Shown here one piece after another: positions 1,203 to 19,422 of a stretch of 20,968 nt of DNA. The stretch covers positions 1-20,968 of the forward strand of contig JAWXAY010000017.1 of assembly GCA_034439715.1 (NCBI GenBank), written 5' to 3'. The DNA comes from Pseudomonadota bacterium. GTDB taxonomy: Bacteria > Bdellovibrionota > Bdellovibrionia > Bdellovibrionales > SG-bin7. The notes below the pieces were generated by a model. The model did not search any database. It had not been told where the DNA came from and saw only the letters and a list, made by a program, of their open reading frames with translations. Every line of letters starts with the position of its first letter. Positions within the stretch are counted from its first letter, which is position 1. The translations under genes were made by a program, and so were the position numbers.

Positions 1203-1841
1203 CTAGAGTTCTAGCGGAAAGGATAAGCTGGCCAACCAAGTCTTACTCTCTAGTTCGACGCTATCTATTGTAGAACCAGGTGCAAATGAAAATGTGCCGA
1301 CTTGCTCGAGGTTAGATTGTCCGTATTTTTGTTCTTGATACTCAAGGTTTAGACTCACAGCTGCCAATCTAAAACCTGCGCCCACTCGGTATCCCGAGGC
1401 GTCCCGAAATCTGACGTCAAAGCCTTCACTTTCTTCAGGATTTAGGTCGCCACCGAGAATATATGATCCCCACAACCTGAGTCCAACAATGGGCATTTGC
1501 ACGCCAACAACTGGTCCGTAATTTGTCGAAACAGCCCTGGCATCATAATTAACGGACGAATCCTTAAACTGGGGCATCGAGTACCGACCATCAACGCCTA
1601 GAAAAAAAGCTTCACTTAAATGAAAGCCAATTCTCGCACCCAATCCAAAGCCTTCTGAATTGCCCGAAGAGTTCGAAAGGGGGGTAGGATAGCTGACGGA
1701 ATTTTGGCCCGTCTCACTATTTATCGAGGGTTCGACAAAAAGCCCACCTTCGGGTTCTTCGGCCCTCACCTGTGGTGCCACGATCCAAATTAAACTAAAT
1801 ACTATAATGAGTTTTTTTAAGGTCAAAATAACTGTGTTCAT
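1203..1841 (-). CDS. Exported outer-membrane beta-barrel protein (small OMP_b-brl-like)
   Basis: Start reassigned from 1985 to ATG 1841: an AAAGGA RBS lies upstream and this avoids overlap with the hemerythrin gene. Signal peptide ending VRA-EE, then alternating amphipathic strands (GFGLGARIGF, FFLGVDGRY, GYRVGAGF, LNLEYQ, WLASLSFPL). Confidence 0.75.
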   Translation of the reverse strand: MNTVILTLKKLIIVFSLIWIVAPQVRAEEPEGGLFVEPSINSETGQNSVSYPTPLSNSSGNSEGFGLGARIGFHLSEAFFLGVDGRYSMPQFKDSSVNYDARAVSTNYGPVVGVQMPIVGLRLWGSYILGGDLNPEESEGFDVRFRDASGYRVGAGFRLAAVSLNLEYQEQKYGQSNLEQVGTFSFAPGSTIDSVELESKTWLASLSFPLEL

Positions 1842-1869
1842 AACGGCATAGTCCTTTCTATTTTGTTTG

Positions 1870-2376
1870 TTAGGAATGAAGAGCTGTCGTCCGGGGCACA
1901 GAGCTTCTTGTTTTTCTACCATTGGCATTTCTGTTTCCCATTGGATTTTCATATTTCTCGCAGAGATCGGCATCGGTACTGTCATCGAGTTGTTTTTTCA
2001 GTTTGGGAAAGACTTCAGTTTCTTCTTCGTCAACGTGATGCTCGATGAGCTCGGCCAGTACTTTACCTTTGGCCGACCAGTCTTCTGGTGAGATTTTCTC
2101 TGATTTCATTTCCTTCACTAACTGATCAACAAGCCGGTGCTCTTCTTCTCCCTCAAGTGCCATAGGCTTGAGATCCTCGGCATCTGCCGATTTCATATAG
2201 GAGTAAACTGCACTCTCTTCTCGCTTGGTGTGCGACACGAGATTAGGAATCAGTCTCGCAAAAGAATTTCGTCTTTCTCTCATTGAGAGTTCGGTATCCT
2301 TAAGATTCCTAATATCTTCTCGTAGTTCGTCATGATCTCTTACTAACGCATTTACTGTTTGAGATGAAAAAAACAT
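1870..2376 (-). CDS. Hemerythrin/HHE cation-binding domain protein
   Basis: Di-iron ligand pattern 'DHDEL', 'HTKREE..VY', 'EEEHRLV', 'EHHVDEEETEVFP'; strong AAGGAGGAG RBS. Confidence 0.9.
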   Translation of the reverse strand: MFFSSQTVNALVRDHDELREDIRNLKDTELSMRERRNSFARLIPNLVSHTKREESAVYSYMKSADAEDLKPMALEGEEEHRLVDQLVKEMKSEKISPEDWSAKGKVLAELIEHHVDEEETEVFPKLKKQLDDSTDADLCEKYENPMGNRNANGRKTRSSVPRTTALHS

Positions 2377-2956: not shown

Positions 2957-3313
2957 CTAAAAGGGTGCTCCACGAGAAATCCAAAGGAGGAGTCGCGCTT
3001 TAGGTTCCGCGGGTAAAGGTGGCGCTTCACTGGGCGGCATATCCCCAAATTCAATTTGGGTCCTAATACTTTCAAGTACACCAACGACGTTATCGTAGTT
3101 TTCCAAATTTACTAGACCCTTGTTGCCGCCAGCCTGGCTGTGACATTCAAAGCAAAAAGGACTAAAGACTTGCGTGGTTATGTTTTCAAAACCGTCCGAA
3201 GTCGCTTTGTCGATGGGGTCTTCAAGCACCGGAGAATGCTCTGGGTTTGTAAAGCCACAGGCCCCTAACAAGCAAACATAAATTATAAGGCTATCACGCA
3301 GAATTTTTTTCAT
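2957..3313 (-). CDS. Mono-heme cytochrome c lipoprotein (planctomycete cytochrome C-like)
   Basis: Lipobox LLGA-C; heme motif CFECH (3140-3154); 'DMPP' candidate distal Met and C-terminal 'LLLWISRGAP', typical of this domain; GGAG RBS. Confidence 0.85.
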   Translation of the reverse strand: MKKILRDSLIIYVCLLGACGFTNPEHSPVLEDPIDKATSDGFENITTQVFSPFCFECHSQAGGNKGLVNLENYDNVVGVLESIRTQIEFGDMPPSEAPPLPAEPKARLLLWISRGAPF

Positions 3314-3325
3314 GGCTCCAACATC

Positions 3326-3352
3326 CTATCGGTGCCTCGCTTTAGATTTTAA
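3326..3352 (-). promoter_or_regulatory. Sigma28 (FliA)-like promoter
   Basis: TTAA-N15-ACCGATAG on the minus strand, 12 nt upstream of ATG 3313. Confidence 0.5.
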
Positions 3353-3376
3353 CTAGCCATTGGCCTCAAATTAAGA

Positions 3377-4870
3377 TCAAAGTCCAAAATTAACCGCATT
3401 GATGTAAAGGCGTTGAATGCCAGCTGTCCCAAGGCAAGTATCGTTTAGAAAGGCGCAGGTAAAATAGAAGCCCACTACAGTGCCACTGCCAAAGCGCCTC
3501 ACGGCGACAGCATCGTTGCCAGCTTGATCCTTCATGATTGTCTCAGATTGCTCGCTGCCAAATTGACGTAGTCCTCCAATGGAATGACCGGCCTCCAGAG
3601 GTATATCAGTAGTGACTCCATCTAGCATAGGATGGCTTTTTTTCTCAGGCAGAGGTATCAAAGAAAAAGTGCCACTGTTTGAAGTTGTAAATAAAAATAG
3701 AACGAGGTCAGGCATTTCTTGGAGAAATCTCTCACTATCGAAAGCATAAGAAGTCCACTCAGAAGTAATAAAAGTACCGCCAGCCTTTACGAACTTCACT
3801 AGCGCTTTTTGTCCTGATACATTCATGTCAATTCCATAATTCATTCCATTAAAATAAATAACAGTACTAAAATTCGACAGTCCGACCCCATCGAAGGAGT
3901 TGGAAGTGTCTTTATAAAACGTTATAGTGGCACCTTCTTTTTCGAGTGCCTTTGTCAATGATACCAAGGGCTCAAGTTTTTGGTCCCATAGTACTAAAAT
4001 TTCGGCGCCTTTTTTAAAGATCATCCCGAGCTCTTGAGCCTTGTCTTTTGAAATCGGAAGAATTGTTTTTTGATTGAATATCACCTTGCTAAAGTTGGCG
4101 TCTGCGAAATTTATCTTGCTAAGATCAGCGCCACGAACATCAGAGGATTCAAAGTTGCTACCAGTGAGATCGGCACCCTTTAGTTGAGCTCGTTTTAGCG
4201 AAGACGAAGTAATTGAGGCCAGAGATAAGTTCGCTTTTACTAGAATAGTACTATTAAATATTACTTTTTCGCCATGAACCTTAGATAGATTTGCCTCTTC
4301 AAGGTTAGCACCCGTAAAATCGGCGCCAGAGAGTTTACTGCTTGCAATAGAAGCGCTGTCTAACGTGGTCTCGATAAATTTGGTATTTGTAAAATTACAA
4401 GACTCGCAGTTAAAATAACTAAGCAGCCCTTTTGAAAGATCTGCTTGCGAAAAATCTGCCTGAACAATGCTAGCCTCATTAAACACTACATTTTTTAAAA
4501 TGGATTTTTTAAAATTGGCATTCTGAATTTTTGCATTTGCGAACTCAACACCCGAAAGATTCGCTCCCTCAAAGTTCACGTCGATTAAAATGGTTTTGTT
4601 GAGTGACGATAATTGCAGGTCCGAACCCATAAATTGAGTGCCACTAAAATCTATGTCATCGAGATTAAAGCGACCAAGAATAACTCCGCGTAAATCAGAG
4701 CATTGGCCAAAGTAACCCTTGTTAAGGCCCGCTTGGCCCTGCTCATTGATACATTTTCCATCTTTGTATCTAAAGCCCATATCGCCAGTGATAACCGCGC
4801 TTGTGCTCAAAAATAAAGTGCCGATAAAAAATAGTCCTTGTCCTAACATTTTTTTGTTCAGTTTATTCAT
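3377..4870 (-). CDS. Exported pentapeptide-repeat protein with C-terminal class I glutamine amidotransferase-like (flavodoxin-like alpha/beta) domain
   Basis: N-terminal hydrophobic signal; about 40 A(D/N)(L/F)xx repeats (ANLSG, ADFSQ ADLSK, ADFTG ANLEE ANLSK, ADLTG); C-terminal 'ALVKFVKAGGTFITSEW...HPMLDGV...AVRRFGSGTVV' resembles GATase1-like/ThuA-like domains. ATGA overlap with the upstream gene. Confidence 0.8.
   Translation of the reverse strand: MNKLNKKMLGQGLFFIGTLFLSTSAVITGDMGFRYKDGKCINEQGQAGLNKGYFGQCSDLRGVILGRFNLDDIDFSGTQFMGSDLQLSSLNKTILIDVNFEGANLSGVEFANAKIQNANFKKSILKNVVFNEASIVQADFSQADLSKGLLSYFNCESCNFTNTKFIETTLDSASIASSKLSGADFTGANLEEANLSKVHGEKVIFNSTILVKANLSLASITSSSLKRAQLKGADLTGSNFESSDVRGADLSKINFADANFSKVIFNQKTILPISKDKAQELGMIFKKGAEILVLWDQKLEPLVSLTKALEKEGATITFYKDTSNSFDGVGLSNFSTVIYFNGMNYGIDMNVSGQKALVKFVKAGGTFITSEWTSYAFDSERFLQEMPDLVLFLFTTSNSGTFSLIPLPEKKSHPMLDGVTTDIPLEAGHSIGGLRQFGSEQSETIMKDQAGNDAVAVRRFGSGTVVGFYFTCAFLNDTCLGTAGIQRLYINAVNFGL
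4060..4700 (-). repeat. Pentapeptide (Rfr beta-helix) repeat tract within CDS; boundaries approximate
   Basis: Tandem 5-residue repeats with L/F at the central position in the translated ORF. Confidence 0.8.
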
Positions 4871-5295
4871 TTGGGATCCCCGTTGGTGCTTTGTGTAAAA
4901 ATGGCGTGAGCTTCTTTTCGTGTTTCTTTCAGCTTTTTGATTTGTCGTAATGACTCTTGCAATAATTGATCTACGACTGTGCTCTCGAGACCTTCAGCGA
5001 GAGTTATAATTTGATTCATAATAGCTTGGTATTGAGCCAATAGTTCCTTTTGTTTAATCGGGTCATTGGTAATGTGGTCCAAGTTAGGGACCTGTGATCT
5101 TGCCTGACGAAAGAGAGCGGTCAATTCGCGACAGTCCGTCAAAGTGTCACTTCCTAAATCTCCCTCTGAGATGACGGCTGTTTGAATGCTATTAAAGATC
5201 TCGCCCGTACGAATCATTGTTTGTTTGAGGTCTTCGGCATGAGAATTTGACCACAGTAATAATCCCAAGAAGAGTGTTAAAAACCATTTAGTCAT
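4867..5295 (-). CDS. cybC: Cytochrome b562-like four-helix-bundle periplasmic protein
   Basis: Start reassigned to ATG 5295 (CAGGAG RBS). Signal peptide ending SHA. The mature N-terminus 'AEDLKQTM' parallels E. coli b562 'ADLEDNM' (Met ligand), and 'LKETRKEAHAIF' parallels 'LKTTRNAYHQKYR' (His ligand). No CxxCH. Confidence 0.75.
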   Translation of the reverse strand: MTKWFLTLFLGLLLWSNSHAEDLKQTMIRTGEIFNSIQTAVISEGDLGSDTLTDCRELTALFRQARSQVPNLDHITNDPIKQKELLAQYQAIMNQIITLAEGLESTVVDQLLQESLRQIKKLKETRKEAHAIFTQSTNGDPK

Positions 5296-6394
5296 GTTGT
5301 CGCTCCTGTCCTTCGGCCAGCCAAAACCTGACAGCATCAATAAGCTCCTGCTGCTCTGATTCCGATAACTGTTTGTGATTAGAGGTGCCTTTAACAGGGA
5401 ATGATACTAGGGGAGAGGTCATTGGATATTGTGCATTGACGAGAGCGCTGGTGGATTTGCATAAATCAGATTCTGAATCATCAATGTTTAGCATTCGAGT
5501 CCCAATTGCCTGGCCTTCAGAATTATGGCAAGTGTCGCAGCGCACGCGGTTAAAAATCGGTAGCATGTATTTTTTGAATCGATTCCTACCAAAGCAGTCA
5601 GCTTGCTCGACCTTTTGAATTTCAACAAATGAAATCGAAAGTTTAGGATTAGCTAGGCCGTCCTTGAGTATTATAATGGCTTGGGCTGATAGCAGGGGAG
5701 TAGCAGTCTCTACTCCGGCAACGTCTATGGGAACAAATGGTACAGATTTGGAAATATCAGTAAAGGCATTTGCGACTTGGTCGTATTTTCCATTGAGAAG
5801 TACTTTTATGTCTTTAACAAGTAAGGCGCCAGACCCATTTATGAATCGAGGAAAGCGCACTCGGTAAGCGCCCTTGGTATCAGGAGAAGTAGGTATAAAA
5901 TCTTGAACTTCAATCTGAAAGCGTACTCCGTCGAGATCTTTTTCAAGGTCTTTTAAATTAAATGTCAGGCTCGTAAATTCGTTCTCAGATTTGGGTAACT
6001 CTTTTGGTAGGGGTATTTCTGCTGTAAAATATTTTCCATTTCGAAGACAGATTTTTTCTCCGCTCTCCCACCAAGTGCGAGCTTTTTCTGCCATGTCCAA
6101 ACCTGATTCAAACTCGCACGATTCTTCTTTACAATGTCCATTGCCCGCTCTAATCACAAGCAGAGATTCTTCTATTTTTGAAAAATTCATGTAGTTTAAA
6201 AGGTGTTGATAACTTTTGAAAGGATCGCTCGTAGCAAATGGGGGAGCTTCAGCTTTTCGGCCGTCATGGCACTTCACGCAGTCTTTTCTGACTTTGACAT
6301 AAACGGACTCTTGAAAGGACTTAAGGCCCTCATCGCAAGCGCTTACAAATTCGGGAGATCCCAGGAACAACGAAATTACAAATATTAACATCAT
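5288..6394 (-). CDS. Exported di-heme c-type cytochrome of unknown function
   Basis: Signal peptide; two heme motifs CVKCH (6266-6280) and CDTCH (5525-5539) flanking a beta-rich middle domain; candidate distal His in 'GNGHC' and 'SNHKQ'; several additional Cys. Confidence 0.8.
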   Translation of the reverse strand: MMLIFVISLFLGSPEFVSACDEGLKSFQESVYVKVRKDCVKCHDGRKAEAPPFATSDPFKSYQHLLNYMNFSKIEESLLVIRAGNGHCKEESCEFESGLDMAEKARTWWESGEKICLRNGKYFTAEIPLPKELPKSENEFTSLTFNLKDLEKDLDGVRFQIEVQDFIPTSPDTKGAYRVRFPRFINGSGALLVKDIKVLLNGKYDQVANAFTDISKSVPFVPIDVAGVETATPLLSAQAIIILKDGLANPKLSISFVEIQKVEQADCFGRNRFKKYMLPIFNRVRCDTCHNSEGQAIGTRMLNIDDSESDLCKSTSALVNAQYPMTSPLVSFPVKGTSNHKQLSESEQQELIDAVRFWLAEGQERQHD

Positions 6395-6397
6395 GCT

Positions 6398-7789
6398 TTA
6401 AACCTTTCCTTCAAAGATCAGTACGCTTTTTAACTGTCCCGCTTCGGTAAAAATACCTGGCGCGTGAGTTGGAAATTCGTCAATTTTGCCGCAAATATTA
6501 AGATAATTTGCGAACACAGCATAGCCAACAAGTGAGGGGTCTCGACCAAGAAGGGTATTTCGATCAGCACCTTGGCCTTCGGTAAAGTGGCCAACCTGAG
6601 TTCTTATCATTTTTGGCGGTCCACTCGGTGAGTAGTACCCTATCACAGTCATACACTTGTCTTCGCTATCGCCCGACCACATGCGTGTGCCTTCAATGTT
6701 TTCGTTACCACCATCTGTTAAGAGCTGAAAGAAAAATGGTTTTTTTAAGCGATGTGCCAGCTCGATGGCGCGGCCTATTTGCACTCCCATTTCTAAATCT
6801 TTGGCGTCACCTGTAGTTTGTGTTCCATCATGATAGTCGCAGTCACCGAGAGTCCAAACCGCTGGACCACTTTGCCCTTTCAACGTGTTCATCACCAGAG
6901 CTGCAGCTACTGCGTTTGCTGTGCTCGGTGTTGTATTTTGATCGATTTGGTAAACGGCCTGTACCTCAGGATCAGTTCGAGGATCGAGGCCGGCCACACC
7001 CTCTAAAAAATCGAGACTTTTTTCGTAAGCACACTTTGATAATTCACCTAATACTTTACCGTCAGGCAAATCAAGGTAGTCATTTTTTTGAATTCGACTT
7101 ATTTCAATGGCACTCTGTGCGAGCGTTTTTAATTGCGGCAGCTTTAAATTTCCGAGCGAGCTGCCACCGAAGCTTGAAGATCCCAAAATATCGTCGATGC
7201 TCATTACGAAAATGGGTTTTAGCACCACACTGTCGATGACGGACGAACTATTGCCGCCAGAGGGTGAGCTTACAACTCCAACACCGTTTGAAATATAGGT
7301 CCCACGAAAGCCAGCACGAAGAGCCAAGGTGGCAGCATTGGTTTTATTAGCAGTGGTATCAAAGGGAGCCGCATGACAGATGCTTCCCATTCTGAAATTT
7401 TTTCGAGCCTCATTGCTACTATTGGAAAGAATGCCCTCTAATATTTTGCTGACACCAGCAGCCATGGGCAGCCCAAAGTCTTTATTTAACGCCTTGCTTT
7501 TATGTGGGTTCCATCCCAATAAGCTATAAGATTTAAGTAAATCTTCTGGCCCACCTTTTTTACCGACTAAAAAGTTTCCCGGAAAGGACGCGCCGCCTGC
7601 CATGTCAAATGCCATAAACGGAACAAGCGATGGGCCATCAACTCCGCCGCCACATTCTTCGAGTGCCTTTCTAAGGCCCATGCCAAAAGCACTCGGTAAC
7701 GAAGCCATTCCGGCAAATGCAATTAAACCGTGAGCTAAGAAATCTCTTCGTGTAATTAATTTATGTTTAAAATCTTTTAACGGCTTCAT
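6398..7789 (-). CDS. Tat-exported protein, DUF1501-like family (homologues are often auto-labelled 'general secretion pathway protein GspF')
   Basis: Twin-arginine signal 'ITRRDFLAHG' followed by a hydrophobic stretch; motifs 'FDMAGGAS', 'GDCDYHDGT' and 'LLTDGG' recall DUF1501/alkaline-phosphatase-superfamily metal-site motifs. No PilC/GspF transmembrane topology. Confidence 0.7.
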   Translation of the reverse strand: MKPLKDFKHKLITRRDFLAHGLIAFAGMASLPSAFGMGLRKALEECGGGVDGPSLVPFMAFDMAGGASFPGNFLVGKKGGPEDLLKSYSLLGWNPHKSKALNKDFGLPMAAGVSKILEGILSNSSNEARKNFRMGSICHAAPFDTTANKTNAATLALRAGFRGTYISNGVGVVSSPSGGNSSSVIDSVVLKPIFVMSIDDILGSSSFGGSSLGNLKLPQLKTLAQSAIEISRIQKNDYLDLPDGKVLGELSKCAYEKSLDFLEGVAGLDPRTDPEVQAVYQIDQNTTPSTANAVAAALVMNTLKGQSGPAVWTLGDCDYHDGTQTTGDAKDLEMGVQIGRAIELAHRLKKPFFFQLLTDGGNENIEGTRMWSGDSEDKCMTVIGYYSPSGPPKMIRTQVGHFTEGQGADRNTLLGRDPSLVGYAVFANYLNICGKIDEFPTHAPGIFTEAGQLKSVLIFEGKV

Positions 7790-7798
7790 AAATGTACC

Positions 7799-8341
7799 TC
7801 ATTTTACTAAGAAGGCCAAACTAGTGGCGTAGGTTGTGCAAAGTATATGTAAAACATTTTCTGTTTCTATTTTTGAGTATTGGTTGGCAGCTCCAGCTTC
7901 GGACACTAGCTTTACCATTACTGTTGCCTCTTGGGGGTTGATGTCGCGATTCCAAAAGAGTCGAGAAAGGTGATTGGAAATTCTTTCGACAAGATAGTCG
8001 CTGAACTGTATGGGTCCAAGTTCAAAGTCGATATCTAAAAATAAAATTCGCTCACCTTTCGTGAGAATTTTTTCTCGGTCAATAGCTTTTTTACAAAACG
8101 CTCCAGACAACTCAGTCATTGCTAATACCGCAGGAGAATTGAGCTCGTCCGCCGTTCCGTTACGGGGTAAGCGTTCTTTACTTAGGCGAAAGATCTCTTG
8201 CAATGTACCATCCTTACCGTCGACACGGGTTACGCTTTCATAAGAGGCGTAGATTTCTCTGAAGTTTTTTAAGCGAATAGGATCTTGGGCACTTGAAATC
8301 TCTAACTGGAATAGACCTAAAATAATAAAAAAAGTTTTCAT
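7799..8341 (-). CDS. Exported helical hypothetical protein, part of the cytochrome operon
   Basis: Start reassigned to ATG 8341 (ATGA overlap with the upstream stop, GGAG RBS). Signal peptide ending SSA-QD; motif 'IRLKNFREIYASYESVT...LAMTELSGAFC'. Confidence 0.7.
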   Translation of the reverse strand: MKTFFIILGLFQLEISSAQDPIRLKNFREIYASYESVTRVDGKDGTLQEIFRLSKERLPRNGTADELNSPAVLAMTELSGAFCKKAIDREKILTKGERILFLDIDFELGPIQFSDYLVERISNHLSRLFWNRDINPQEATVMVKLVSEAGAANQYSKIETENVLHILCTTYATSLAFLVK

Positions 8342-9585
8342 AAAGACTCCGATTCTTGTTGGGGATAAGAAAGGCACTCATTTCGCGAAGCCACATTTGC
8401 AAATAACTTTTTTAGATTATAGCCAGAATTTTCGAGTTCAGCGGTTAGGGGTTCTAACAGCTCAGGGGCCGTGTCCTTAATGACCTTGCCGCAGACTTCT
8501 TTAAAGACCTTAGTTACTAAGCAACGACTATAGGCCGAAGAGTTTGCGAGCATTTCGCCAAAAGCTTTGATTCCCACACCTTCGAGAGGCGTTCGCCAAC
8601 CAAAGTCGGCGCTGGGATTAAAATTTAATAAATTGTACCAACTATCATCGACAGTAACAAATCCAGCTGGGTAGATGTGACCATTCTGATTCATTTTTGG
8701 TTGCACACCTTTTTTTTGATAAACTAAGGTGAGATCCTTAAAATCTATTTTGGCAAAGGCGCCACCCATGGCATCCATAAAGCCATGACAGTTTCTGCAA
8801 CGATTCTGGTATTCAGATCCTTCATTGCCAGCGGCACGCGGGACATCTCTTCTCACAAACATATCGGGCACGGCCCGCATTTTCCAACTATCGATAGGTG
8901 CGCATAAGAAAACATTAAAAGCATTAGTTACACCTAGTCGATTTGTGTCTCCCGTATCATAATTGATTTTAGACCAGGCTCGAGACGTTAGAGCGCCTGC
9001 AGCAACATCTAATTCTTTCCACTGGTCTTGAACGAGTTCAAGGTCGTCATGAAAGCTGTAGTGTTGATTTTCAAATGTTAGGTAATGATCATTGTTAGAC
9101 AGCGATACTTCCGGCAGGCTAAGAGAATTTTGTCCACTGTAGCGAATGTCTCCGGTTAAGATAAGTCGCGCGTCTAATTCGTCGCGGGTTACACCTAAAA
9201 TTAAAGCTTGAAGGTCATTTAAAGCTTCGTGCGGCGAGCCATCCTTGCTAGAAAAAGGCGCCACAAAGTTTTTCATTCGAACATTCAGAAAGTTTTTTTC
9301 TTTGACGATTAAGTTAGCTGCCTCTAGGTGCTTTTTTTCTGCCAAGAGTCTTAGAACTTTCACAAAGTGGGGGTGTTTATCGGGAATAGTGCTGCCAGTT
9401 AGGATAGTGAATAGCCGTTGGGCATAGGCCATCTCAGTGGAAGCGTTGTTAAAAAGGGGTAGATTCAGAATTTTTTCGGACTTTATTTCGACTTTAGTCC
9501 CGCTGCAAATGGGTGCTGATGTCGCCATTGCCAACTGTACGCAGGCGGTTAATGGTAAAATAATTTTGGCTAGGTTTAGGAACAT
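8338..9585 (-). CDS. Exported mono-heme c protein related to the PSD/DUF1588-DUF1585 families
   Basis: Start reassigned to ATG 9585 (GGGAG RBS). Signal peptide; 'AGALTSRAW', 'TNR...FLC', 'CRNCHGFMDAMG' (CxxCH at 8785-8799); C-terminal 'FGEMLANS..YSRCLVTKVF...GYNLKKLF' resembles DUF1585. Confidence 0.75.
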   Translation of the reverse strand: MFLNLAKIILPLTACVQLAMATSAPICSGTKVEIKSEKILNLPLFNNASTEMAYAQRLFTILTGSTIPDKHPHFVKVLRLLAEKKHLEAANLIVKEKNFLNVRMKNFVAPFSSKDGSPHEALNDLQALILGVTRDELDARLILTGDIRYSGQNSLSLPEVSLSNNDHYLTFENQHYSFHDDLELVQDQWKELDVAAGALTSRAWSKINYDTGDTNRLGVTNAFNVFLCAPIDSWKMRAVPDMFVRRDVPRAAGNEGSEYQNRCRNCHGFMDAMGGAFAKIDFKDLTLVYQKKGVQPKMNQNGHIYPAGFVTVDDSWYNLLNFNPSADFGWRTPLEGVGIKAFGEMLANSSAYSRCLVTKVFKEVCGKVIKDTAPELLEPLTAELENSGYNLKKLFANVASRNECLSYPQQESESL

Positions 9586-9782
9586 TTTTACTCCCGGCTG
9601 TTGATTCAAAAATATAGGTGTTGTGCTAAGATTTTATCTAATGAGACGACATATGTGCAACAGAAACCTGATTGATTAATTTACCTAGGACCACGACTTT
9701 AGTAGCGTGAAATTAAGTGGTGATTGATTTGATTTAAAATCATCCCTACGATCAATTTTGAAAACTAAAAAAAGGGGAGAAC

Positions 9783-10136
9783 ATGAATAGATTTTTAGTG
9801 GCAATATTTTTAGGTTTTTTTTGTAATCAAGCGAGCGCCAACCAAGAGTTAATTTTTGAGTTTCATATTAAAGCCGGGACCCAGAGTGGTCCATGGAATG
9901 CTCCCGAAGATATGATCGAAGCAAAAATAGGCGACGTGGTTAGAATATTCAATGACGACTCAATAGATCATCAGTTACATACCGGCGGTGCACCATGTGC
10001 CCATAGTCCGGTGATAGCTCCCGGAAGAAGTTGGGATTGCGAAATTAGTAATGAGTACAACGCCAAATCCTCGGGCGCTCTTTATGATCATTCTTATGGT
10101 CCTGATGCTGCCTTTTGGCTAAGTGCCTCAAGATAG
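9783..10136 (+). CDS. Exported cupredoxin-like protein
   Basis: GGGGAG RBS; signal peptide ending ASA; 'IEAKIGDVVRIFNDDSIDHQLH...IAPGRSW...LYDH' follows the cupredoxin strand pattern. Confidence 0.7.
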   Translation: MNRFLVAIFLGFFCNQASANQELIFEFHIKAGTQSGPWNAPEDMIEAKIGDVVRIFNDDSIDHQLHTGGAPCAHSPVIAPGRSWDCEISNEYNAKSSGALYDHSYGPDAAFWLSASR

Positions 10137-10257: not shown

Positions 10258-11439
10258 ATGTATTTAGACTATAGCGTGTTTGATTCATTTTTGGATGGAA
10301 TTTTTATCGTAGATAAAAATTTAAACCTCATTTATTGCAACGAAATTGCCGCTAATCTCAGCGGTAATTCTTACCGACGTCTCAAATACAACTATGGAAA
10401 AGCCTTTACCAAATTCATTAAATTTGAAAACGAGTGGTTTACCGATAAAAAAATTCTGGCAAATGTCAAAGAGGCAACGCCCTACCTCCAGTTGCAAATG
10501 CTATTACAACATGGGGCGCCCAACAATGTTTTGGTAAGCATTCAAAAAATTCCACGGGAGTTACAAGGGTCAGATCACTGGATACTCATTATAAAGGACC
10601 AGACCGTTGAACAGATTCTTCACAAAAAGTACCGGCGGCAGCTAAAGCTTAAAGAGGATAACATTCGGGCACTCAAAGATCTAGATCACGCCAAAGATCG
10701 ATTTATGATTTTGATAACGCATGAACTTCGAACGCCGCTGTCAGCAATTCTTGGCACCTGTGATGTTTTGATAAATAAGCTTTATGACGATGAGTCGCAG
10801 CGAGATGCCTTTACTAAAACTATCTTTGAGCAATCAAAACATCTCTTAGAAATGGCCAACAACATATTGGATTACACGAAAATTCAAGCTGGTAAAATGG
10901 AGTATTACATTGAACACTTGGATATCCTGCCTCTAGTGAAAAGCTGTTTGGGTGCTTATGAATTGTGGGCTAAAGAAGAAAAAGTAAATCTGGAACTTAA
11001 AGCGAATATCGTTGAAAAATTTGCTTGTTACTATGATGCCGAGAGGTTACGACACGTTCTTAGGAGCGTTATTCACAATGCCGTCAGGTTTAACAAAAGA
11101 AACGGAAAAGTCGTTGTTGAAGTTTCGAGCGACCAGAGGTCCGATTCTACTCTAGTGACAATAAGTGATACCGGAGTGGGAATTCCTCATGAAAAACTCA
11201 GCATTGTTTTCAATGATTTTGAAGTGGGTATGGGAATGAATAATCACCAAAAGGGTACTGGCCTTAGTATGCCAATCTCAAAGAGAATTATTGAAAGTCT
11301 TGGAGGAAGAATTCTTTTGAGTAGCCAAGAAGGCGTAGGTACTAAGATAAAGATCTTTATTCCTAATGAAAAAGTTCTCGAAGATGAAGTTTACAGAACT
11401 CCACCCTTAAAAAATAATTCTGGCGATCTCGCTGCCTAA
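10258..11439 (+). CDS. Cytoplasmic PAS-domain sensor histidine kinase
   Basis: N-terminal PAS ('DGIFIVDKNLNLIYCNEIA'); H-box 'THELRTPL'; N-box 'IHNAVRF'; G1 'DTGVGI'; G2 'GTGLSMPI'; no TM segments. Confidence 0.92.
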   Translation: MYLDYSVFDSFLDGIFIVDKNLNLIYCNEIAANLSGNSYRRLKYNYGKAFTKFIKFENEWFTDKKILANVKEATPYLQLQMLLQHGAPNNVLVSIQKIPRELQGSDHWILIIKDQTVEQILHKKYRRQLKLKEDNIRALKDLDHAKDRFMILITHELRTPLSAILGTCDVLINKLYDDESQRDAFTKTIFEQSKHLLEMANNILDYTKIQAGKMEYYIEHLDILPLVKSCLGAYELWAKEEKVNLELKANIVEKFACYYDAERLRHVLRSVIHNAVRFNKRNGKVVVEVSSDQRSDSTLVTISDTGVGIPHEKLSIVFNDFEVGMGMNNHQKGTGLSMPISKRIIESLGGRILLSSQEGVGTKIKIFIPNEKVLEDEVYRTPPLKNNSGDLAA

Positions 11440-12009
11440 TTAGTTCAAACAATCGGTATTGACAAATGCCGCGCCGGCTTTTCGATAAACTTTAAACCAA
11501 CTTTCGTTGACTTCTTCAACCCAAATTTTAGATTTTGTTTTTGCCTTACCTACTTCTTTTGAGGCGGAATTAGCTCCTTCACGCATTGCGCACGCAGTTT
11601 TTACGGTCTTAAAGCCCACGTATTTTTTTATTCCCACTGGTTTTTTTGGCGAAGGTTTGGGTGCTAGTTTGGGCGAGCTCACTATTTTGGGCGTTTTAAA
11701 GGGTGCTGAGGGAGCTGAAAGCGCCGAGGTCCCAGCCGATACTGGAGGAGGGACTAGAGCAGGCTCTGGTTGCATTTCAGTTGTTTCTACTGGTGATGGA
11801 GCGACAGGCGGAATTTTTTCTCCCTCTTGAACAATGTTTAGAGGAGCATCATCACCCTCTTCGTCTTCTCCTTCGTCATCTCCTTCGTCTCCCATGTCAT
11901 CTGAAGCCGCCGACTCATCCTCTGGAGAATCTGGCGCTGTGTATCCGGGGTAAGAATAAAGAGTTATCGCCAATATAGCTGTCAGTAGTATATGAATAGT
12001 ATTTGCCAT
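11440..12009 (-). CDS. Secreted protein with acidic and Pro-rich linker and C-terminal SH3b-like domain
   Basis: Start reassigned to ATG 12009 (AAGGA RBS). Signal peptide, Asp/Glu tract, Pro/Lys tract, then 'CAMREGANSASKEVG...IWVEEVNESWFKV...AAFV', which is SH3b-like. Confidence 0.75.
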   Translation of the reverse strand: MANTIHILLTAILAITLYSYPGYTAPDSPEDESAASDDMGDEGDDEGEDEEGDDAPLNIVQEGEKIPPVAPSPVETTEMQPEPALVPPPVSAGTSALSAPSAPFKTPKIVSSPKLAPKPSPKKPVGIKKYVGFKTVKTACAMREGANSASKEVGKAKTKSKIWVEEVNESWFKVYRKAGAAFVNTDCLN

Positions 12010-12057
12010 GTGTACGTCCTTGTCGGATTCATTTTTATTAAAGGTTCCCAATGGTCC

Positions 12058-12084
12058 TTATCGGTACAATAGTTTTTTGTTTGA
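12058..12084 (-). promoter_or_regulatory. Sigma28 (FliA)-like promoter
   Basis: TCAA-N15-ACCGATAA on the minus strand, 48 nt upstream of ATG 12009; near-consensus. Confidence 0.7.
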
Positions 12085-12139
12085 CTGGACTTTTGCCTTT
12101 AATTCGCGCGACAATGTAACTTATAGTCCAGGAGTTGGG

Positions 12140-13063
12140 ATGCCAGATTCTCGTAGTCGAAGAATTCTTTGCGTTGATGACCAAAGCGAAAACCTCAAAC
12201 TTTTGCGTGAGGCTCTTGAGAAAGAATCCTACTCAGTCAATACCGCGAGCTCGGGCCCAGAGGCTGTCGAAAAAATCAATCAATGGATGCCAGATCTAGT
12301 TTTACTGGATCGAAACATGCCTGGCTTAAGTGGCTTAGAAGTTTTGCGACAACTCCGACAAAAAAGAAATTATACAGCAGTAATTTTTTTATCGGCGGAT
12401 TCACGCCCTACGATGGTTTCAGAATGTCTACTTGAGGGCGCAGATGATTATATTAGAAAACCCTTTTCATTTGTCGAACTCATTGCTCGTGTCGAGGTGA
12501 GATTTCGATTTAAAGATTTACAAGAAGAAAAAAACGAAGCGATTTTTCAGCTTCAGGAGCAAGCAGAAAGGGACCATCTGACAGGTTTGTTTAATATGCG
12601 GAGCATGTACGACAAAATTGACTTTGAGCTAAAGCGGGTTAAGCGCTATGGAGGTCAAATTGCTTGTATTATGATGGATATGGATTTTTTTAAACGGGTT
12701 AATGACGAACATGATCATCTTTTTGGAAGCTACGTTTTAAAAGAAGTTGGCCAAATTATTAAGGGCAATATTCGTGATACTGATTTGGCTGCTAGGTATG
12801 GAGGCGATGAATATTTGATCGTACTTACTCAAACCAATGCTGATGGAGTCAGGAATCTGTGTGAGCGCATTCGCCAAAAAATTGAAAGTACAAATTTTCG
12901 TAGCGGCAGCGATTCAATCAACCTTACAGCTAGTCTAGGTTACTGCATTGTGGGCAATGAAACCAAACTAGATGCCAGAAAACAAGTGCGTAACGCCGAT
13001 CACGCTTTATATGAGGCCAAAGGAAAAGGCCGAAATCGCGTGATAGGATTTTCCTCGACCTAA
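12140..13063 (+). CDS. dgcA: REC-GGDEF response regulator dinucleotide cyclase with Hypr signature (Bd0367/DgcA, GacA-like)
   Basis: Start reassigned to ATG 12140 (AGGAG RBS). REC domain ('CVDD', 'LDRNMP', 'KPF'). GGDEF domain with 'DHLTGLFNMRS', 'DMDFFKRVNDEHDHLFGS' (Ser where canonical enzymes have Asp), RxxD I-site 'RDTD' and active site 'GGDEY'. Confidence 0.9.
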   Translation: MPDSRSRRILCVDDQSENLKLLREALEKESYSVNTASSGPEAVEKINQWMPDLVLLDRNMPGLSGLEVLRQLRQKRNYTAVIFLSADSRPTMVSECLLEGADDYIRKPFSFVELIARVEVRFRFKDLQEEKNEAIFQLQEQAERDHLTGLFNMRSMYDKIDFELKRVKRYGGQIACIMMDMDFFKRVNDEHDHLFGSYVLKEVGQIIKGNIRDTDLAARYGGDEYLIVLTQTNADGVRNLCERIRQKIESTNFRSGSDSINLTASLGYCIVGNETKLDARKQVRNADHALYEAKGKGRNRVIGFSST

Positions 13064-13075
13064 GGACGAATAAAT

Positions 13076-13102
13076 TTACAGAATCGTTAGGAATTCCGAT
13101 AA
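13076..13102 (+). promoter_or_regulatory. Sigma28 (FliA)-like promoter, probably giving a leaderless mRNA
   Basis: TTAC-N15-TCCGATAA ending 6 nt before GTG 13109; no clear SD. Confidence 0.5.
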
Positions 13103-13108
13103 AGTAGA

Positions 13109-15517
13109 GTGGACCGCTATTTATTTATTATTACATTTATATTGTTGATTTTAGAAGCCGGCTGGTTTCTTGGGGATTTAGGGTTTATAGATCTTAAGTT
13201 TTTTTCAGGCAATTCAATTTCCAAAGTCGAAAGAAGCGTCGGGAAATTGACCCAAACAAAACGAAACGTGCGCCGAAGAATAAAAGACAGTATTGTCTGG
13301 GAGGAATCTGCCCCGGAAGACTCGGTTTACAACCATGATTCGATTTTAACACTTTCACAAAGTTCAGCAACGCTTGAGCTCGGCAATCTAAGTAGAATTT
13401 CTCTCTCTGAAAACACTTTGATAATGGTGGAGTTACCTGACATTCAAGGAGACTCTCGAATTCGTCTTAAATTTTCAAAAGGAGACATCAAAACGAGGAC
13501 CACCGCGAGAAAAATGCAGATTACTACTAAGTCATTTACGATCGATGCCAGCGAAGGGGCAGAGCTAAATTTACGATCAGTGGGGCTAGACAATGTGGAG
13601 GTCGAAATTCTTAAGGGGAGTGCAAGTTTAAAAAATGAGAATACCAATCAAAATCTCGTTCAAGGGGATTTGGCTCTGCTGAATAAAGAATTGGTCACTT
13701 CTACTGTTAAACTTAAAGAAGACTTGAAGTGGATCACTCCCGATGGGGGCAGAGCTTACACTCACACAGTTCCGGTAGGCGTTCTTTTAAAATGGGAGGG
13801 TGAGGCCGATACACTTTGGCATCTATCACCCGCCGGGGCGACGAATGAAAAACCGATTTCAGGCCAAAGCACAGCCTTAATATTAGGCCCGGGCTCACAT
13901 AGTTTTCGTTTAAAGACAAAGGATAGCACTTCAAAAACTCTGCTGTTAAGCGTGTGGAAGGCTCCCGTCATTCATTTGCTTTCTCCGTTGCCTCGAGACC
14001 GCCTGTCGCTCTCTTCAAACCAACTTTTTAGTTGGGTTTCTACCAATATGGCTAAAGAGTACCGAGTACAACTTAGTCTCGATCCAAATTTTACCAACGT
14101 CGTTTACGATAAAAAAACTTCGAAGCCAAATCAGGAATTGGTTTTGGTTGATGAAGGAAATTACTATTGGCGCGTTGAAGGCATCGATGACTTAGGTTAT
14201 GTTATTCCGCCGCCTTATAAAAACCAGATATATAATTATCAGGATTTATTGGAAGCTCCGACACTTAAGTCTCCTCGAGCCAGAGAGCCGGCTAACGAAC
14301 CTGCCCAAGAAAAAGACGGTGCTTTTTATAGGTTTATTCAAAAAATATTTGGGCTGGCCATTAACAAAGCTTACGCAGAAACTCCGAAATACGATGTGGA
14401 ATTTGAGTGGGAAGTTGTTCCTGGTGCAGATCATTATGTTGTCGAAATCGACCGCGAAGGAAATTTTCAAAAACCCATGACGGTGGTAAAAGTTGAAGGC
14501 CAGTCATTTTTGTGGAGAGGCTCCGAACTAGGCAGTTATTTCTGGCGGGTGGCTGCAGGTCGTGGCCCAAAGATGGGTAAATTTTCGCGGGCCTCAGTAC
14601 TGGATATGAACAAGGCGATCAGGGATTCCAAGGTGGCCAAAGAAATGGGTGTGAAAATAAAAAAATCGGAGGTGGCTACTCCGGCAGCTCTACCTTTGCC
14701 AGTCGCAAAAACTGAAAAAAAAATCAAACTTGTTAAAGTTGCAAAGTCGCTGCCACCACCCCAGCCAGCACCATCGCCCTCACCGCCAGATCTAAAGGTT
14801 CCCATTTCTGTAACTATTGCTGCCGAACAAGAGCAAAAAACTTTGAAGGAAGAAAAACCACCCCCAGTGCCAACCCCACTGGCAGAACCAAAACCCGCCA
14901 AATTGGCGTGGTCAAAAACTAAAGTTTCCGGGAAATTTTTTCTGGGAACCGCTTATGAGTCTACCACAATCAGCGCCCCTCAATCACTACAGTCGGAATT
15001 TAATGGTTTGGCTGCCTATTACGGACATTTAGAGGTCGAGTTGGCACATTCTGAAAAGCCAAACTTTCTGGTTCACTCCAGTTTCAGTCGTAGCGACTGG
15101 CAGCCAGAATCGAAAATACTTTATCCCTTTCAAGGAGAAGTTAGCACGAGCGCGCTAAGAAACTCCTTTTTGATTTCTCGAGAAAAATATTATATTGGCC
15201 TTGCACTGTCACAGGTGTCCATTATTGAACGAGCCACTTACGATGCGCTATTGACCAAAGAGATTTGGCTTTATGGCCTAGCGGCATTTTGTCGCTTTAA
15301 CCTTCGACCGAATCTGCTGGCCGCGCATGAATTGACACTTACTGGTGGCAGCGCTGTTATAGAGTTATATTTGAAAAATAGTTTAAATTATTTATTTCCG
15401 ACAGGACAATCAATAGGTCTTATCTTAGGAGCCGATCTCAATCTCGGCTTTCAAAATGGTCAGGATCGCGACGGCATCCAAGGCAGTTTGGGTGCCACCT
15501 TGGGATTGAGTTGGTAA
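13109..15517 (+). CDS. Membrane-anchored FecR-domain protein with Ig/FN3-like repeats, Pro-rich linker and C-terminal beta-strand-rich domain
   Basis: N-terminal TM; FecR-like 'VYNHDSILTLSQSSATLEL...ISLSENTLI...VEVEILKGSASL'; FN3-like 'FSW...YRVQLSLDPNF...GNYYWRVEG' and 'FEWEVVPGADHYVVEID...GSYFWRVAA'; Pro-rich tract; amphipathic strands ending 'GATLGLSW'. Confidence 0.8.
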   Translation: MDRYLFIITFILLILEAGWFLGDLGFIDLKFFSGNSISKVERSVGKLTQTKRNVRRRIKDSIVWEESAPEDSVYNHDSILTLSQSSATLELGNLSRISLSENTLIMVELPDIQGDSRIRLKFSKGDIKTRTTARKMQITTKSFTIDASEGAELNLRSVGLDNVEVEILKGSASLKNENTNQNLVQGDLALLNKELVTSTVKLKEDLKWITPDGGRAYTHTVPVGVLLKWEGEADTLWHLSPAGATNEKPISGQSTALILGPGSHSFRLKTKDSTSKTLLLSVWKAPVIHLLSPLPRDRLSLSSNQLFSWVSTNMAKEYRVQLSLDPNFTNVVYDKKTSKPNQELVLVDEGNYYWRVEGIDDLGYVIPPPYKNQIYNYQDLLEAPTLKSPRAREPANEPAQEKDGAFYRFIQKIFGLAINKAYAETPKYDVEFEWEVVPGADHYVVEIDREGNFQKPMTVVKVEGQSFLWRGSELGSYFWRVAAGRGPKMGKFSRASVLDMNKAIRDSKVAKEMGVKIKKSEVATPAALPLPVAKTEKKIKLVKVAKSLPPPQPAPSPSPPDLKVPISVTIAAEQEQKTLKEEKPPPVPTPLAEPKPAKLAWSKTKVSGKFFLGTAYESTTISAPQSLQSEFNGLAAYYGHLEVELAHSEKPNFLVHSSFSRSDWQPESKILYPFQGEVSTSALRNSFLISREKYYIGLALSQVSIIERATYDALLTKEIWLYGLAAFCRFNLRPNLLAAHELTLTGGSAVIELYLKNSLNYLFPTGQSIGLILGADLNLGFQNGQDRDGIQGSLGATLGLSW

Positions 15518-15534
15518 AAAATATAAAGACAGGA

Positions 15535-15966: not shown

Positions 15967-15967
15967 A

Positions 15968-19389: not shown

Positions 19390-19394
19390 TAACT

Positions 19395-19422
19395 TCATCG
19401 GCAGTTTAAGGGCGAAAGGTTA
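19395..19422 (-). promoter_or_regulatory. Sigma28 (FliA)-like promoter, probably giving a leaderless mRNA
   Basis: TAAC-N16-GCCGATGA ending 5 nt before ATG 19389; no SD. Confidence 0.5.

What the first reader, a model, noticed from the sequence alone, without database searches (positions are those of the whole stretch)
2957..10136. Candidate undescribed envelope redox/metal system: Tat-exported DUF1501-like protein embedded in an operon of c- and b-type cytochromes, with a divergent cupredoxin
Seen: six genes from 9585 to 3377 are translationally coupled or nearly so (overlaps of 4, 8 and 4 nt; gaps of 9 and 3 nt), and all carry export signals. With the downstream lipoprotein they encode four CxxCH motifs (8785-8799, 6266-6280, 5525-5539, 3140-3154), a b562-type heme bundle and one twin-arginine substrate. 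A cupredoxin-like gene is transcribed divergently. Known: Tat export usually indicates a folded or cofactor-loaded protein, and DUF1501/DUF1552 genes recur next to PSD-type (DUF1549/1553/1588/1585) CxxCH proteins in planctomycetes and myxobacteria without an assigned function. Inference: the Tat protein is a metalloenzyme subunit wired to a dedicated periplasmic electron-transfer chain. The added b562, di-heme and pentapeptide partners look like an expanded version I do not recognise as described.
Basis: partly seen in the sequence, partly recalled or inferred. Interest (0 to 1): 0.85.

Follow-up and report, generated by a model that had tools for sequence, protein, structure and literature searches.

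The report
Bdellovibrionota heme–metalloenzyme envelope module
Four tightly packed genes, conserved across the phylum of predatory Bdellovibrio-like bacteria, encode heme-motif proteins and an exported protein predicted to fold like a phosphatase, which likely act together as a redox enzyme outside the cytoplasm; this is an unnamed branch of a long-unexplained gene system, here with extra heme and copper-fold partners, and its reaction is still unknown.

Summary
In detail: gene spacing, four CxxCH motifs, the twin-arginine signal, b562 ligands and the divergent cupredoxin-fold gene. The core is four genes. A is a monoheme PSD-type cytochrome. B resembles the other half of a DUF1592-type protein, so A+B look like a split, permuted form. 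C is a Tat protein predicted to have the alkaline-phosphatase fold, with invariant Asp/His/Asn/Tyr but no conserved Ser/Thr/Cys nucleophile. D is a diheme cytochrome. A and B adjoin C in 33 of 34 loci, D follows in 33 of 38, and C relatives occur in 55 of 121 phylum genomes. C is homologous to DUF1501 (HHalign 90-94%) but matches no Pfam family. Its proteobacterial relatives carry the automatic name 'GspF'. The b562, pentapeptide, lipoprotein cytochrome and cupredoxin genes are accessory; the cupredoxin lacks the blue-copper Cys but is fused to A in one genome. In 20 of 55 genomes a heme-motif, barrel-like gene lies within 10 kb of C, but none flanks this locus. Verdict: a new variant of the published, functionally unassigned PSCyt/PSD-DUF1501/DUF1552 module. 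Most likely a periplasmic heme-metal oxidoreductase (about 50%); substrate and subunit binding are untested.

The parts
8338..9585 (-). A (P0001, 415 aa): exported monoheme PSD-type cytochrome c scaffold, corresponding to the PSCyt3-PSD2 half of DUF1592-type proteins; core
   Evidence: Of 71 family members, 53 hit PSD2 and 34 hit PSCyt3 at E<=0.05. HHalign to four DUF1592-type paralogs of this genome: 96.7%, E 4.5e-10, 229 columns. Atlas TM 0.60 to a DUF1592 cluster. AF2 pLDDT 90.5. Invariant in 41 of 41: G212 R216 C228 D247 CxxCH D271 K297 C355 C365.
8785..8799 (-). CxxCH heme-attachment motif of A (C263, C266, H267)
   Evidence: invariant in 71 of 71.
7799..8341 (-). B (P0002, 180 aa): exported protein without heme motif, weakly similar to the N-terminal half of DUF1592-type proteins; core
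   Evidence: HHalign 32%, E 5e-4, 151 columns (weak). C83 and C168 invariant in 30 of 30. Fused to A in 4 loci and to D in L145 and L163.
6398..7789 (-). C (P0003, 463 aa): Tat-signal protein with predicted alkaline-phosphatase-superfamily fold, DUF1501-related but outside that Pfam family; predicted carboxylate-rich metal site; core
   Evidence: AF2 pLDDT 90.0. Foldseek TAB5 alkaline phosphatase E 3.1e-4. VIA-align Z 11.7, rmsd 4.2, 217 aligned to Xac NPP. In 126 members: D144 126, N148 124, D318 126, Y319 125, H320 126, D359 122, D374 123, D62 86 (N 25).
5288..6394 (-). D (P0004, 368 aa): exported diheme cytochrome c, predicted bis-His hemes; core
   Evidence: First CxxCH and H87 invariant in 24 of 24; two motifs in 19 of 24; H340 in 19 of 24. 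Directly follows C in 33 of 38 loci.
6266..6280 (-). First CxxCH of D
5525..5539 (-). Second CxxCH of D
4867..5295 (-). E (P0005, 142 aa): cytochrome b562-like protein with Met27 and His132; accessory
   Evidence: PF07361 E 3.2e-6. Follows D in L024 and L039. In L168 a b562 gene heads a b562-YceI-like-heme barrel-cytochrome lipoprotein run.
3377..4870 (-). F (P0006, 497 aa): exported pentapeptide-repeat protein with a ThuA-like C-terminal domain; occupant of a variable slot
   Evidence: PF00805 E 2e-34. Homolog L021 hits ThuA at E 8e-7. Other loci carry RCC1, Kelch, FG-GAP or FGE-fold proteins beside the core.
2957..3313 (-). G (P0007, 118 aa): monoheme cytochrome c lipoprotein (lipobox LGAC; CxxCH at 3140-3154), PSCyt1-like; accessory
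   Evidence: PSCyt1 E 7.9e-4; weak LIC11213-family match, E 0.059. Homologs kept beside the module in L022 and L024 in changed positions.
9783..10136 (+). H (P0008, 117 aa): divergent cupredoxin-fold protein with a predicted non-blue His/Asp metal site; accessory but linked by fusion
   Evidence: Plastocyanin E 6e-4. In 119 members: H63 117, H66 119, H74 119, D102 117, H103 119, D59 119. Fused to the C terminus of A in L164; fused to a cytochrome c beside the module in L049 and L058.

Best explanation
The four conserved genes A-B-C-D likely encode one periplasmic heme-and-metal oxidoreductase, in which the Tat protein C is predicted to hold a substrate at a carboxylate-rich metal site while the heme of A and the two hemes of D would carry the electrons. 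Shown: operon anatomy, motifs, conservation, homology of A to PSD cytochromes and of C to DUF1501, and gene fusions A-B, B-D and A-H in relatives. Predicted: the phosphatase-superfamily fold of C. Inferred: (1) C folds and loads metal in the cytoplasm and leaves by Tat; (2) A and B rebuild a split PSD scaffold that docks C near a c-type heme whose invariant Arg/Asp/Lys residues may make it catalytic; (3) D relays electrons to G and b562 here, or to a heme-motif outer-membrane barrel in many relatives; (4) the variable repeat, propeller or lectin-fold neighbour (F here) supplies substrate or partner recognition; (5) H adds a non-blue copper or other metal site. The substrate is most likely an anionic (phosphate-, sulfate- or carboxylate-bearing) organic molecule, which is a guess from the fold.
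For: Co-conservation: A and B next to C in 33 of 34 loci with enough upstream DNA; D directly downstream in 33 of 38 and nearby in 35 of 38. Fusions tie A, B, D and H together. The C fold is alkaline-phosphatase superfamily, and D62, D144, D318, H320, D359 and D374 lie in or just after strands of the model, matching the DTH, SEF and DH metal motifs of DUF1501. The usual nucleophile position (residue 150) is not conserved: L 49, F 16, T 13, M 11, H 9 of 126, and a sulfatase C/S-x-P-x-R motif is found in 0 of 126 (4 of 117 in the closer set), so ordinary hydrolysis is unlikely. The heme motif of A is invariant, as is the first heme of D. A heme-motif barrel-like gene lies within 10 kb of C in 20 of 55 genomes with C, from 6 families. 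Variable neighbours are binding-type folds, as carbohydrate- and protein-binding domains are on PSCyt proteins (PMC5615132, PMC3542564, passages).
Against: No activity, metal, heme or expression data exist. Spatial clustering of the metal ligands is inferred from secondary structure and homology; coordinates were not inspected. C has lost two of the conserved His residues of DUF1501 (at the nucleophile position and in the DH motif), and D62 varies (86 of 126), so the site could be structural or degenerate. The B homology is weak (32%). E, F and H are rare (1, 3 and 3 of 16 loci), D's second heme motif is missing or altered in 5 of 24, and 1 of 34 loci (L062) has C without A or B. This genome had no match to the barrel profile (one weak, unlinked candidate on C43), so an outer-membrane exit is not shown here. 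The barrel profile was seeded with 4 of 5 sequences taken from module neighbours, and related genomes are not independent.
Confidence: 0.5

Rival explanations
1. The module handles metals rather than organic substrates: C binds a hard metal ion (Mn, Fe, Ca or a lanthanide), and the heme chain oxidises or reduces it, exchanging electrons with the outside through a cytochrome-porin-like barrel.
For: Carboxylate-rich invariant set in C. Heme-motif barrel-like gene within 10 kb in 20 of 55 genomes, and near DUF1501-like genes in 6 of 36. His/Asp cupredoxin fused to A. DUF1800 proteins were found in a metal-mineralising vesicle fraction (PMC12981691, passages).
Against: The barrels lack the defining Cyc2 motif (0 of 5; motif from 10.1101/228056, passages). 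No barrel flanks this locus. At least nine paralogous modules in one genome and the variable binding-type neighbours fit many substrates better than one metal. No metal transporter recurs among the 57 neighbours scanned.
Confidence: 0.2
2. A protein-modification machine: the hemes of A and D act like MauG or MbnH (recalled) to build a cofactor inside C, for instance on the invariant Tyr319, or to modify the co-encoded secreted repeat proteins.
For: Invariant polar residues near the heme motif of A, including K297 in 41 of 41. Invariant Y319 between two predicted metal ligands. Each module keeps its own A-C pair (identity correlation rho 0.68 over 26 loci, which shared descent alone also gives).
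Against: Neither A nor D matches diheme peroxidase models. DUF1501 has Thr at the Tyr319 position.
Confidence: 0.12
3. A non-catalytic envelope scaffold or sensor: C is a degenerate phosphatase fold that binds lipid or glycan phosphate, and the hemes sense redox state or gas.
For: Loss of the nucleophile and of two His ligands relative to DUF1501. The best, weak structural match of A is a phycobilisome linker domain (Z 5.5, rmsd 3.2, 117 aligned), a scaffold fold.
Against: D144, D318 and H320 are invariant and N148, Y319, D359 and D374 nearly so across a family of about 1,020 clusters at 50% identity. No regulator is conserved beside the module.
Confidence: 0.12
4. C is an ordinary phosphatase, phosphodiesterase or sulfatase, and the cytochromes are unrelated neighbours.
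For: All 50 listed structural matches of C are alkaline-phosphatase-superfamily members. This copy has Thr at position 150.
Against: Thr at 150 in only 13 of 126; no sulfatase motif; near-obligate linkage to A, B and D.
Confidence: 0.06

Closest known systems
DUF1501 (PF07394) + PSCyt1/PSCyt2/PSD1 modules of Planctomycetes, Verrucomicrobia and Lentisphaerae (PMC3542564, passages read)
   Same: Tat-signal protein homologous to DUF1501 (HHalign 90.4% local, 94.4% global) next to exported PSD-type CxxCH proteins; many paralogous modules per genome; variable binding domains; function unassigned, electron transfer proposed.
   Different: C misses PF07394, lacks its conserved His at the nucleophile position and in the DH motif, and has invariant D144, N148 and Y319 instead. 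The cytochrome is split into A and B, a separate diheme D is core, and the host phylum is Bdellovibrionota.
DUF1592-type cytochromes (PSCyt3/PSD2/PSD4/PSD5) paired with DUF1552 (HXXSHH, PF07586)
   Same: A aligns with the C-terminal half (96.7%) and B weakly with the N-terminal half (32%) of this genome's DUF1592-type proteins; four DUF1552 modules are in the same genome.
   Different: Here the halves are separate genes or fused in reverse order (A then B), and in local alignment C matches DUF1552 only in the Tat signal (global 68%).
Proteobacterial proteins with the automatic name 'general secretion pathway protein GspF' (Atlas cluster of 631 members)
   Same: Nearest named clusters to C (feature score 0.97; TM 0.77-0.79). 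Metagenome locus L163 shows an A / D-B fusion / C order.
   Different: The name looks wrong: C has a soluble phosphatase-type predicted fold and no match to a secretion family. No functional study was found.
Alkaline phosphatase superfamily (NPP, AP, sulfatases, EptA)
   Same: Predicted fold: Z 11.7, rmsd 4.2, 217 aligned; Asp/His at the expected strand ends.
   Different: No conserved Ser/Thr/Cys nucleophile, about 10% identity, and obligate heme-protein partners.
Sox system, SoxB with SoxAX (recalled, not tested)
   Same: A Tat-exported dimetal hydrolase-fold protein working with c-type cytochromes in the periplasm: an analogy for how it may work.
   Different: Different folds; no Sox family matched any protein here.
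Cyc2 cytochrome-porin (10.1101/228056, passages read)
   Same: The neighbour gene in relatives has a signal peptide, one N-terminal CxxCH and a 360-390 aa barrel-like remainder.
   Different: The defining PxFAR[QK][TY] motif is absent in 5 of 5; the barrel was not folded; the gene is not beside this locus.

Membership tests
DUF1501 (PF07394) | Match to the Pfam model over its cut-off | tested here: not met
   No hit for P0003 at E<=0.1 or for 100 distant members; the genome search with PF07394 finds three other loci, not this one.
DUF1501 (PF07394) | Twin-arginine signal | tested here: met
   TRRDFL; R14 and R15 invariant in 117 of 117.
DUF1501 (PF07394) | Core D-x-H and S-E-F metal motifs | tested here: met
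   D318-Y-H320 and T-D359-G align with D276-T-H278 and S-E320-F.
DUF1501 (PF07394) | Invariant His at the nucleophile position and in the late D-H motif | tested here: not met
   H120 and H335 are invariant in 15 of 15 DUF1501 sequences. C has His at position 150 in 9 of 126 (position assigned by distance to the following Gly), and no His among the five commonest residues at 375.
DUF1552 (HXXSHH, PF07586) | Match to the Pfam model and His-rich motif | tested here: not met
   No hit; local HHalign covers only the signal peptide.
PSD/PSCyt cytochromes (PSCyt3, PSD2) | CxxCH followed by Asp in a PSCyt3-like domain, then PSD2 | tested here: met
   53 and 34 of 71 members hit PSD2 and PSCyt3 at E<=0.05; HHalign 96.7%. 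P0001 itself is below both cut-offs.
PSD/PSCyt cytochromes (PSCyt3, PSD2) | N-terminal half on the same chain | tested here: inconclusive
   It appears to be the separate gene B (32%, E 5e-4), fused behind A in 4 loci.
Alkaline phosphatase superfamily | Core alpha/beta fold | tested here: met
   Predicted model.
Alkaline phosphatase superfamily | Conserved Ser, Thr or Cys/formylglycine nucleophile | tested here: not met
   Position 150 is variable; C/S-x-P-x-R in 0 of 126. The position was assigned by sequence spacing, not coordinates.
Alkaline phosphatase superfamily | Bound metals and hydrolase or transferase activity | not testable with these tools
   Needs purified protein.
Cytochrome b562 (PF07361) | Pfam match with Met/His heme ligands | tested here: inconclusive
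   28.1 bits against a cut-off of 30; Met27 and His132 present (ligand positions recalled); heme binding untested.
Type-1 blue copper cupredoxins | Cupredoxin fold | tested here: met
   Profile match to plastocyanin E 6e-4, followed by further plastocyanins and amicyanins; not folded.
Type-1 blue copper cupredoxins | Cys ligand in the C-terminal loop | tested here: not met
   D102-H103 in 117 and 119 of 119; no Cys there.
Cyc2 (neighbour gene in relatives only) | PxFAR[QK][TY] upstream of CxxCH | tested here: not met
   0 of 5; motif from 10.1101/228056.

The most novel reading that the evidence does not exclude
A modular, envelope-spanning redox machine of predatory bacteria: an alkaline-phosphatase fold repurposed for redox chemistry at a carboxylate-rich dimetal site, a catalytic heme in the structurally unsolved PSD scaffold, a non-blue cupredoxin, and a heme wire (D, G, b562, and in many relatives an outer-membrane heme barrel), with swappable repeat or propeller subunits choosing the target, possibly prey envelope material.
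Probability: 0.25. Interest if true: 0.85.

Novelty: new variant of a known kind. Interest (0 to 1): 0.5.

Why it matters
The PSCyt/PSD-DUF1501/DUF1552 modules are very common and have had no assigned reaction since they were described. This branch has no Pfam or NCBIfam model, spans about 1,020 clusters at 50% identity, occurs in 55 of 121 sampled genomes of the phylum, and its proteobacterial relatives carry a misleading 'GspF' name. Its split cytochrome, changed metal ligands, fusions with a non-blue cupredoxin and frequent linkage to a heme-barrel gene give specific residues and partners to test. Five single-contig genomes of one genus in the same order each gave one match for this branch, which suits clean deletion. 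If the redox reading holds, it would add a new reaction type to the alkaline-phosphatase superfamily.

Tried and rejected
Complex prediction of A(42-408)+B(19-180)+C(50-463)+heme, partner C: verdict 'no answer'. RNA runs: no RNA holder was listed; no evidence either way. Fold search of A: no Foldseek match at E<=0.001 and best VIA Z 5.5, which shows neither a known nor a new fold. Promoter and terminator scan: 15 and 11 sites against 13.5 and 8.1 expected, not informative. Plasmid searches with P0003 and P0308: no match. Viral contigs: no relative among 80 pattern hits. Cluster-member names could not be looked up. Solved-structure searches with single P0008, single P0005 and the D profile gave nothing significant. 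H is not detectably similar to the protein at 19841-20677. The A-C identity correlation is expected from shared descent and is not used as proof of binding. FGE-fold neighbours were considered as sulfatase-activating enzymes and set aside: by eye they lack the catalytic Cys pair (motif recalled), and C lacks the sulfatase motif. Qnr, PipB2 and HalA matches of F are far below their cut-offs and reflect pentapeptide repeats only. Literature: seven full-text searches found no functional study of this branch. The library lacks most subscription papers, and no supplements were read, so transcriptome or fitness tables may hold data I did not see.
Full report
Observation. The window is a whole contig (C17) of a 3.26 Mb genome, 95.7% complete. 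The relatives with named records are mostly Bdellovibrionota. Seven genes run on the minus strand: A 9585-8338, B 8341-7799, C 7789-6398, D 6394-5288, E 5295-4867, F 4870-3377 and G 3313-2957. H (9783-10136) is divergent. Junctions are -4, +9, +3, -8, -4 and +63 nt, and all starts have a plausible ribosome-binding stretch. The four CxxCH motifs are at the stated places; 10,000 shuffles of the 2,300 residues gave a mean of 0.013 and never more than one. The genome encodes TatC and a cytochrome c assembly protein. Signal peptides were judged by eye and by hydrophobicity only.

Protein C. It has no Pfam or NCBIfam match at E<=0.1, and none of 100 distant members matches DUF1501 or DUF1552. A profile finds 1,020 clusters at 50% identity at E<=0.001, 482 of them at 1e-30. 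The AlphaFold model (pLDDT 90.0) matches the alkaline-phosphatase superfamily: Foldseek E 3.1e-4 to TAB5 phosphatase, and VIA Z 11.7, rmsd 4.2, 217 aligned to a nucleotide pyrophosphatase. Against 15 DUF1501 proteins from the same phylum, HHalign gives 90.4% locally (69 columns, E 1.4e-6) and 94.4% globally. Against 26 DUF1552 proteins only the signal peptide aligns locally. In 126 aligned members (P0003 plus the 125 of 141 new hits that were 430-545 aa long), D144, D318 and H320 are invariant, N148, Y319, D359 and D374 nearly so, and D62 is Asp in 86 and Asn in 25. DUF1501's invariant His ten residues before a conserved Gly, the superfamily's nucleophile position (recalled), corresponds to residue 150, which is variable here (L 49, F 16, T 13, M 11, H 9). 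Its late D-H motif keeps only the Asp. So C is a DUF1501 homolog with a more carboxylate-rich predicted site and no conserved nucleophile. The Atlas places it next to Bdellovibrionota hypothetical clusters and Pseudomonadota clusters automatically named 'GspF', with DUF1501-bearing clusters further out (TM 0.58/0.66).

Proteins A and B. Of 71 A-family members, 53 hit PSD2 and 34 hit PSCyt3 weakly. A aligns over 229 columns with the C-terminal half of four DUF1592-type paralogs of this genome (96.7%), and B aligns weakly with their N-terminal half (32%, E 5e-4). A and B are fused, A first, in 4 loci. I read them as a split and permuted PSD cytochrome. Besides CxxCH, G212, R216, C228, D247, D271, K297, C355 and C365 are invariant in 41 of 41; the Met and His candidates for a distal ligand are not (M270 32, H167 24, M298 17 of 41). 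This leaves open a polar, possibly catalytic heme pocket (inference).

Proteins D to H. D keeps its first CxxCH and H87 in 24 of 24 and two motifs in 19 of 24. E is b562-like, just under the Pfam cut-off. F is a pentapeptide-repeat protein with a ThuA-like tail. G is a PSCyt1-like lipoprotein. H has a cupredoxin-type profile (plastocyanin E 6e-4), but an Asp-His pair replaces the blue-copper Cys, and H63, H66, H74, D102 and H103 are kept in 117-119 of 119.

Conservation. Among 45 C genes in 43 loci, A and B adjoin C in 33 of the 34 with at least 1.5 kb upstream, and D follows directly in 33 of the 38 with at least 0.9 kb downstream (35 nearby). The exception without A or B is L062. In the 16 loci with wide flanks E, F and H occur in 1, 3 and 3. 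Some loci are near-duplicates (L049 and L058; L054 and L055), and kin are not independent. Sixteen metagenome loci mostly show the same order, though several are short contigs and two (L161, L162) gave no called core gene. The C profile matches 55 of 121 phylum genomes, against 39 for PF07394 and 15 for PF07586. This genome has a second copy of the branch on C93, three DUF1501-like and four DUF1552 modules. Fusions link the parts: B-D in L145 and L163, A-H in L164, and H-cytochrome c beside the module in L049 and L058. H also occurs away from C: of the 4 other genomes with an H match, only G051 has it next to C. I scanned 57 selected neighbours and D variants against Pfam. The slot beside the core holds pentapeptide, RCC1, Kelch, FG-GAP or FGE-fold proteins, and Calx-beta domains are built into the B-D fusions of L145.

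The barrel link. Several relatives carry, beside the core, a gene for a 360-390 aa exported protein with one N-terminal CxxCH and a barrel-like remainder, often with YceI and a G-like lipoprotein. In L168 a b562 gene heads such a run. A 5-sequence profile matched 74 of 121 genomes. It lies within 10 kb of C in 20 of the 55 genomes with C (20 of the 40 that have both; 6 families) and of a DUF1501-like gene in 6 of 36 (weak hits above E 1e-13 and three genomes with DUF1501 hits were left out). Four of the five seed sequences were module neighbours, which favours the count. The barrels lack the Cyc2 motif, were not folded, and this genome gave no match (one weak unlinked candidate on C43). E and G here may be recruits from that second unit.

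How it most likely works. I put about 50% on a periplasmic heme-metal oxidoreductase: C binds an anionic substrate at its metal site, the A-B scaffold brings a heme close, D relays electrons onward, and the variable neighbour selects the target. The rivals are metal redox or handling (20%), a cofactor- or protein-modifying machine (12%), a non-catalytic scaffold or sensor (12%) and a plain hydrolase (6%). Anatomy, conservation, homology and fusions are shown; folds are predicted; binding, metals, hemes and chemistry are inferred.

Comparison with what is known. PMC3542564 (passages) describes DUF1501 with PSCyt/PSD modules, Tat signals, and a proposal of electron transfer with unknown function. 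PMC5615132 (passages) says nothing is known of their function and notes carbohydrate-binding fusions. PMC5122149 (passages) links DUF1501-DUF1800 to chitin synthase operons. PMC12981691 (passages) finds DUF1800 proteins in a mineralising vesicle fraction and notes a likeness to ApcE. PMC2754498 (passages) reports stress regulation of related genes. 10.1101/228056 (passages) gave the Cyc2 motif. Other papers were seen as search listings only. Seven searches found no study of this branch. Earlier notes of this scan list 108 findings with these key words, so the general system is common. Alkaline-phosphatase, b562, Sox and MauG details are recalled.

Verdict. The feature is real and conserved. 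It works like the known PSD-cytochrome plus Tat-metalloprotein modules, but it fails membership of DUF1501 and DUF1552: a new variant of a known, unexplained kind. Interest 0.5.

Noticed in passing
G000 contig C27:12176-31979; also C93:46392-52694, C111:979-4082, C16:3854-7337: Five PSD-cytochrome plus Tat-protein modules (two DUF1552, three DUF1501-like) lie in tandem within 20 kb on C27; the genome has at least nine such modules in all.
   Followed up: partly
L142:4272-5417, L147:11027-12190, L059:2800-3891, L141, L168:5994-8635: An unnamed monoheme barrel-like protein family (no Pfam or NCBIfam match) in 74 of 121 phylum genomes, often with YceI, a cytochrome c lipoprotein and sometimes b562; Cyc2-like in layout but without the Cyc2 motif.
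   Followed up: partly
L142:5504-6346 and L147:4891-5733: A lipoprotein signal peptidase II gene directly follows D in two genomes whose B and D look like lipoproteins.
   Followed up: no
proteins P0418-P0459: The non-blue cupredoxin domain of H also occurs fused behind PF17206 domains, without a signal peptide in those inspected, suggesting a cytoplasmic metal-sensing regulator family.
   Followed up: partly
window 19841-20677 (-): A 278-aa lipoprotein-like ORF with a His-rich C-terminal part and no Pfam or NCBIfam match; not detectably similar to H.
   Followed up: partly
window 1870-2376 (-) and 1203-1985 (-): A hemerythrin (HHE) gene and an outer-membrane beta-barrel gene lie downstream of G on the same strand; not noticed beside the module in other loci.
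   Followed up: no
window 10258-19398: A signalling cluster: histidine kinases, response regulators, a GGDEF response regulator (read from the translations) and a FecR-domain exported protein.
   Followed up: no
L170:3958-6201: b562, a cytochrome c lipoprotein and a diheme peroxidase/Rox-like gene lie together in another genome.
   Followed up: no
L145:7280-19849: Two tandem modules whose B-D fusions carry many Calx-beta repeats (916 and at least 1,623 aa).
   Followed up: partly
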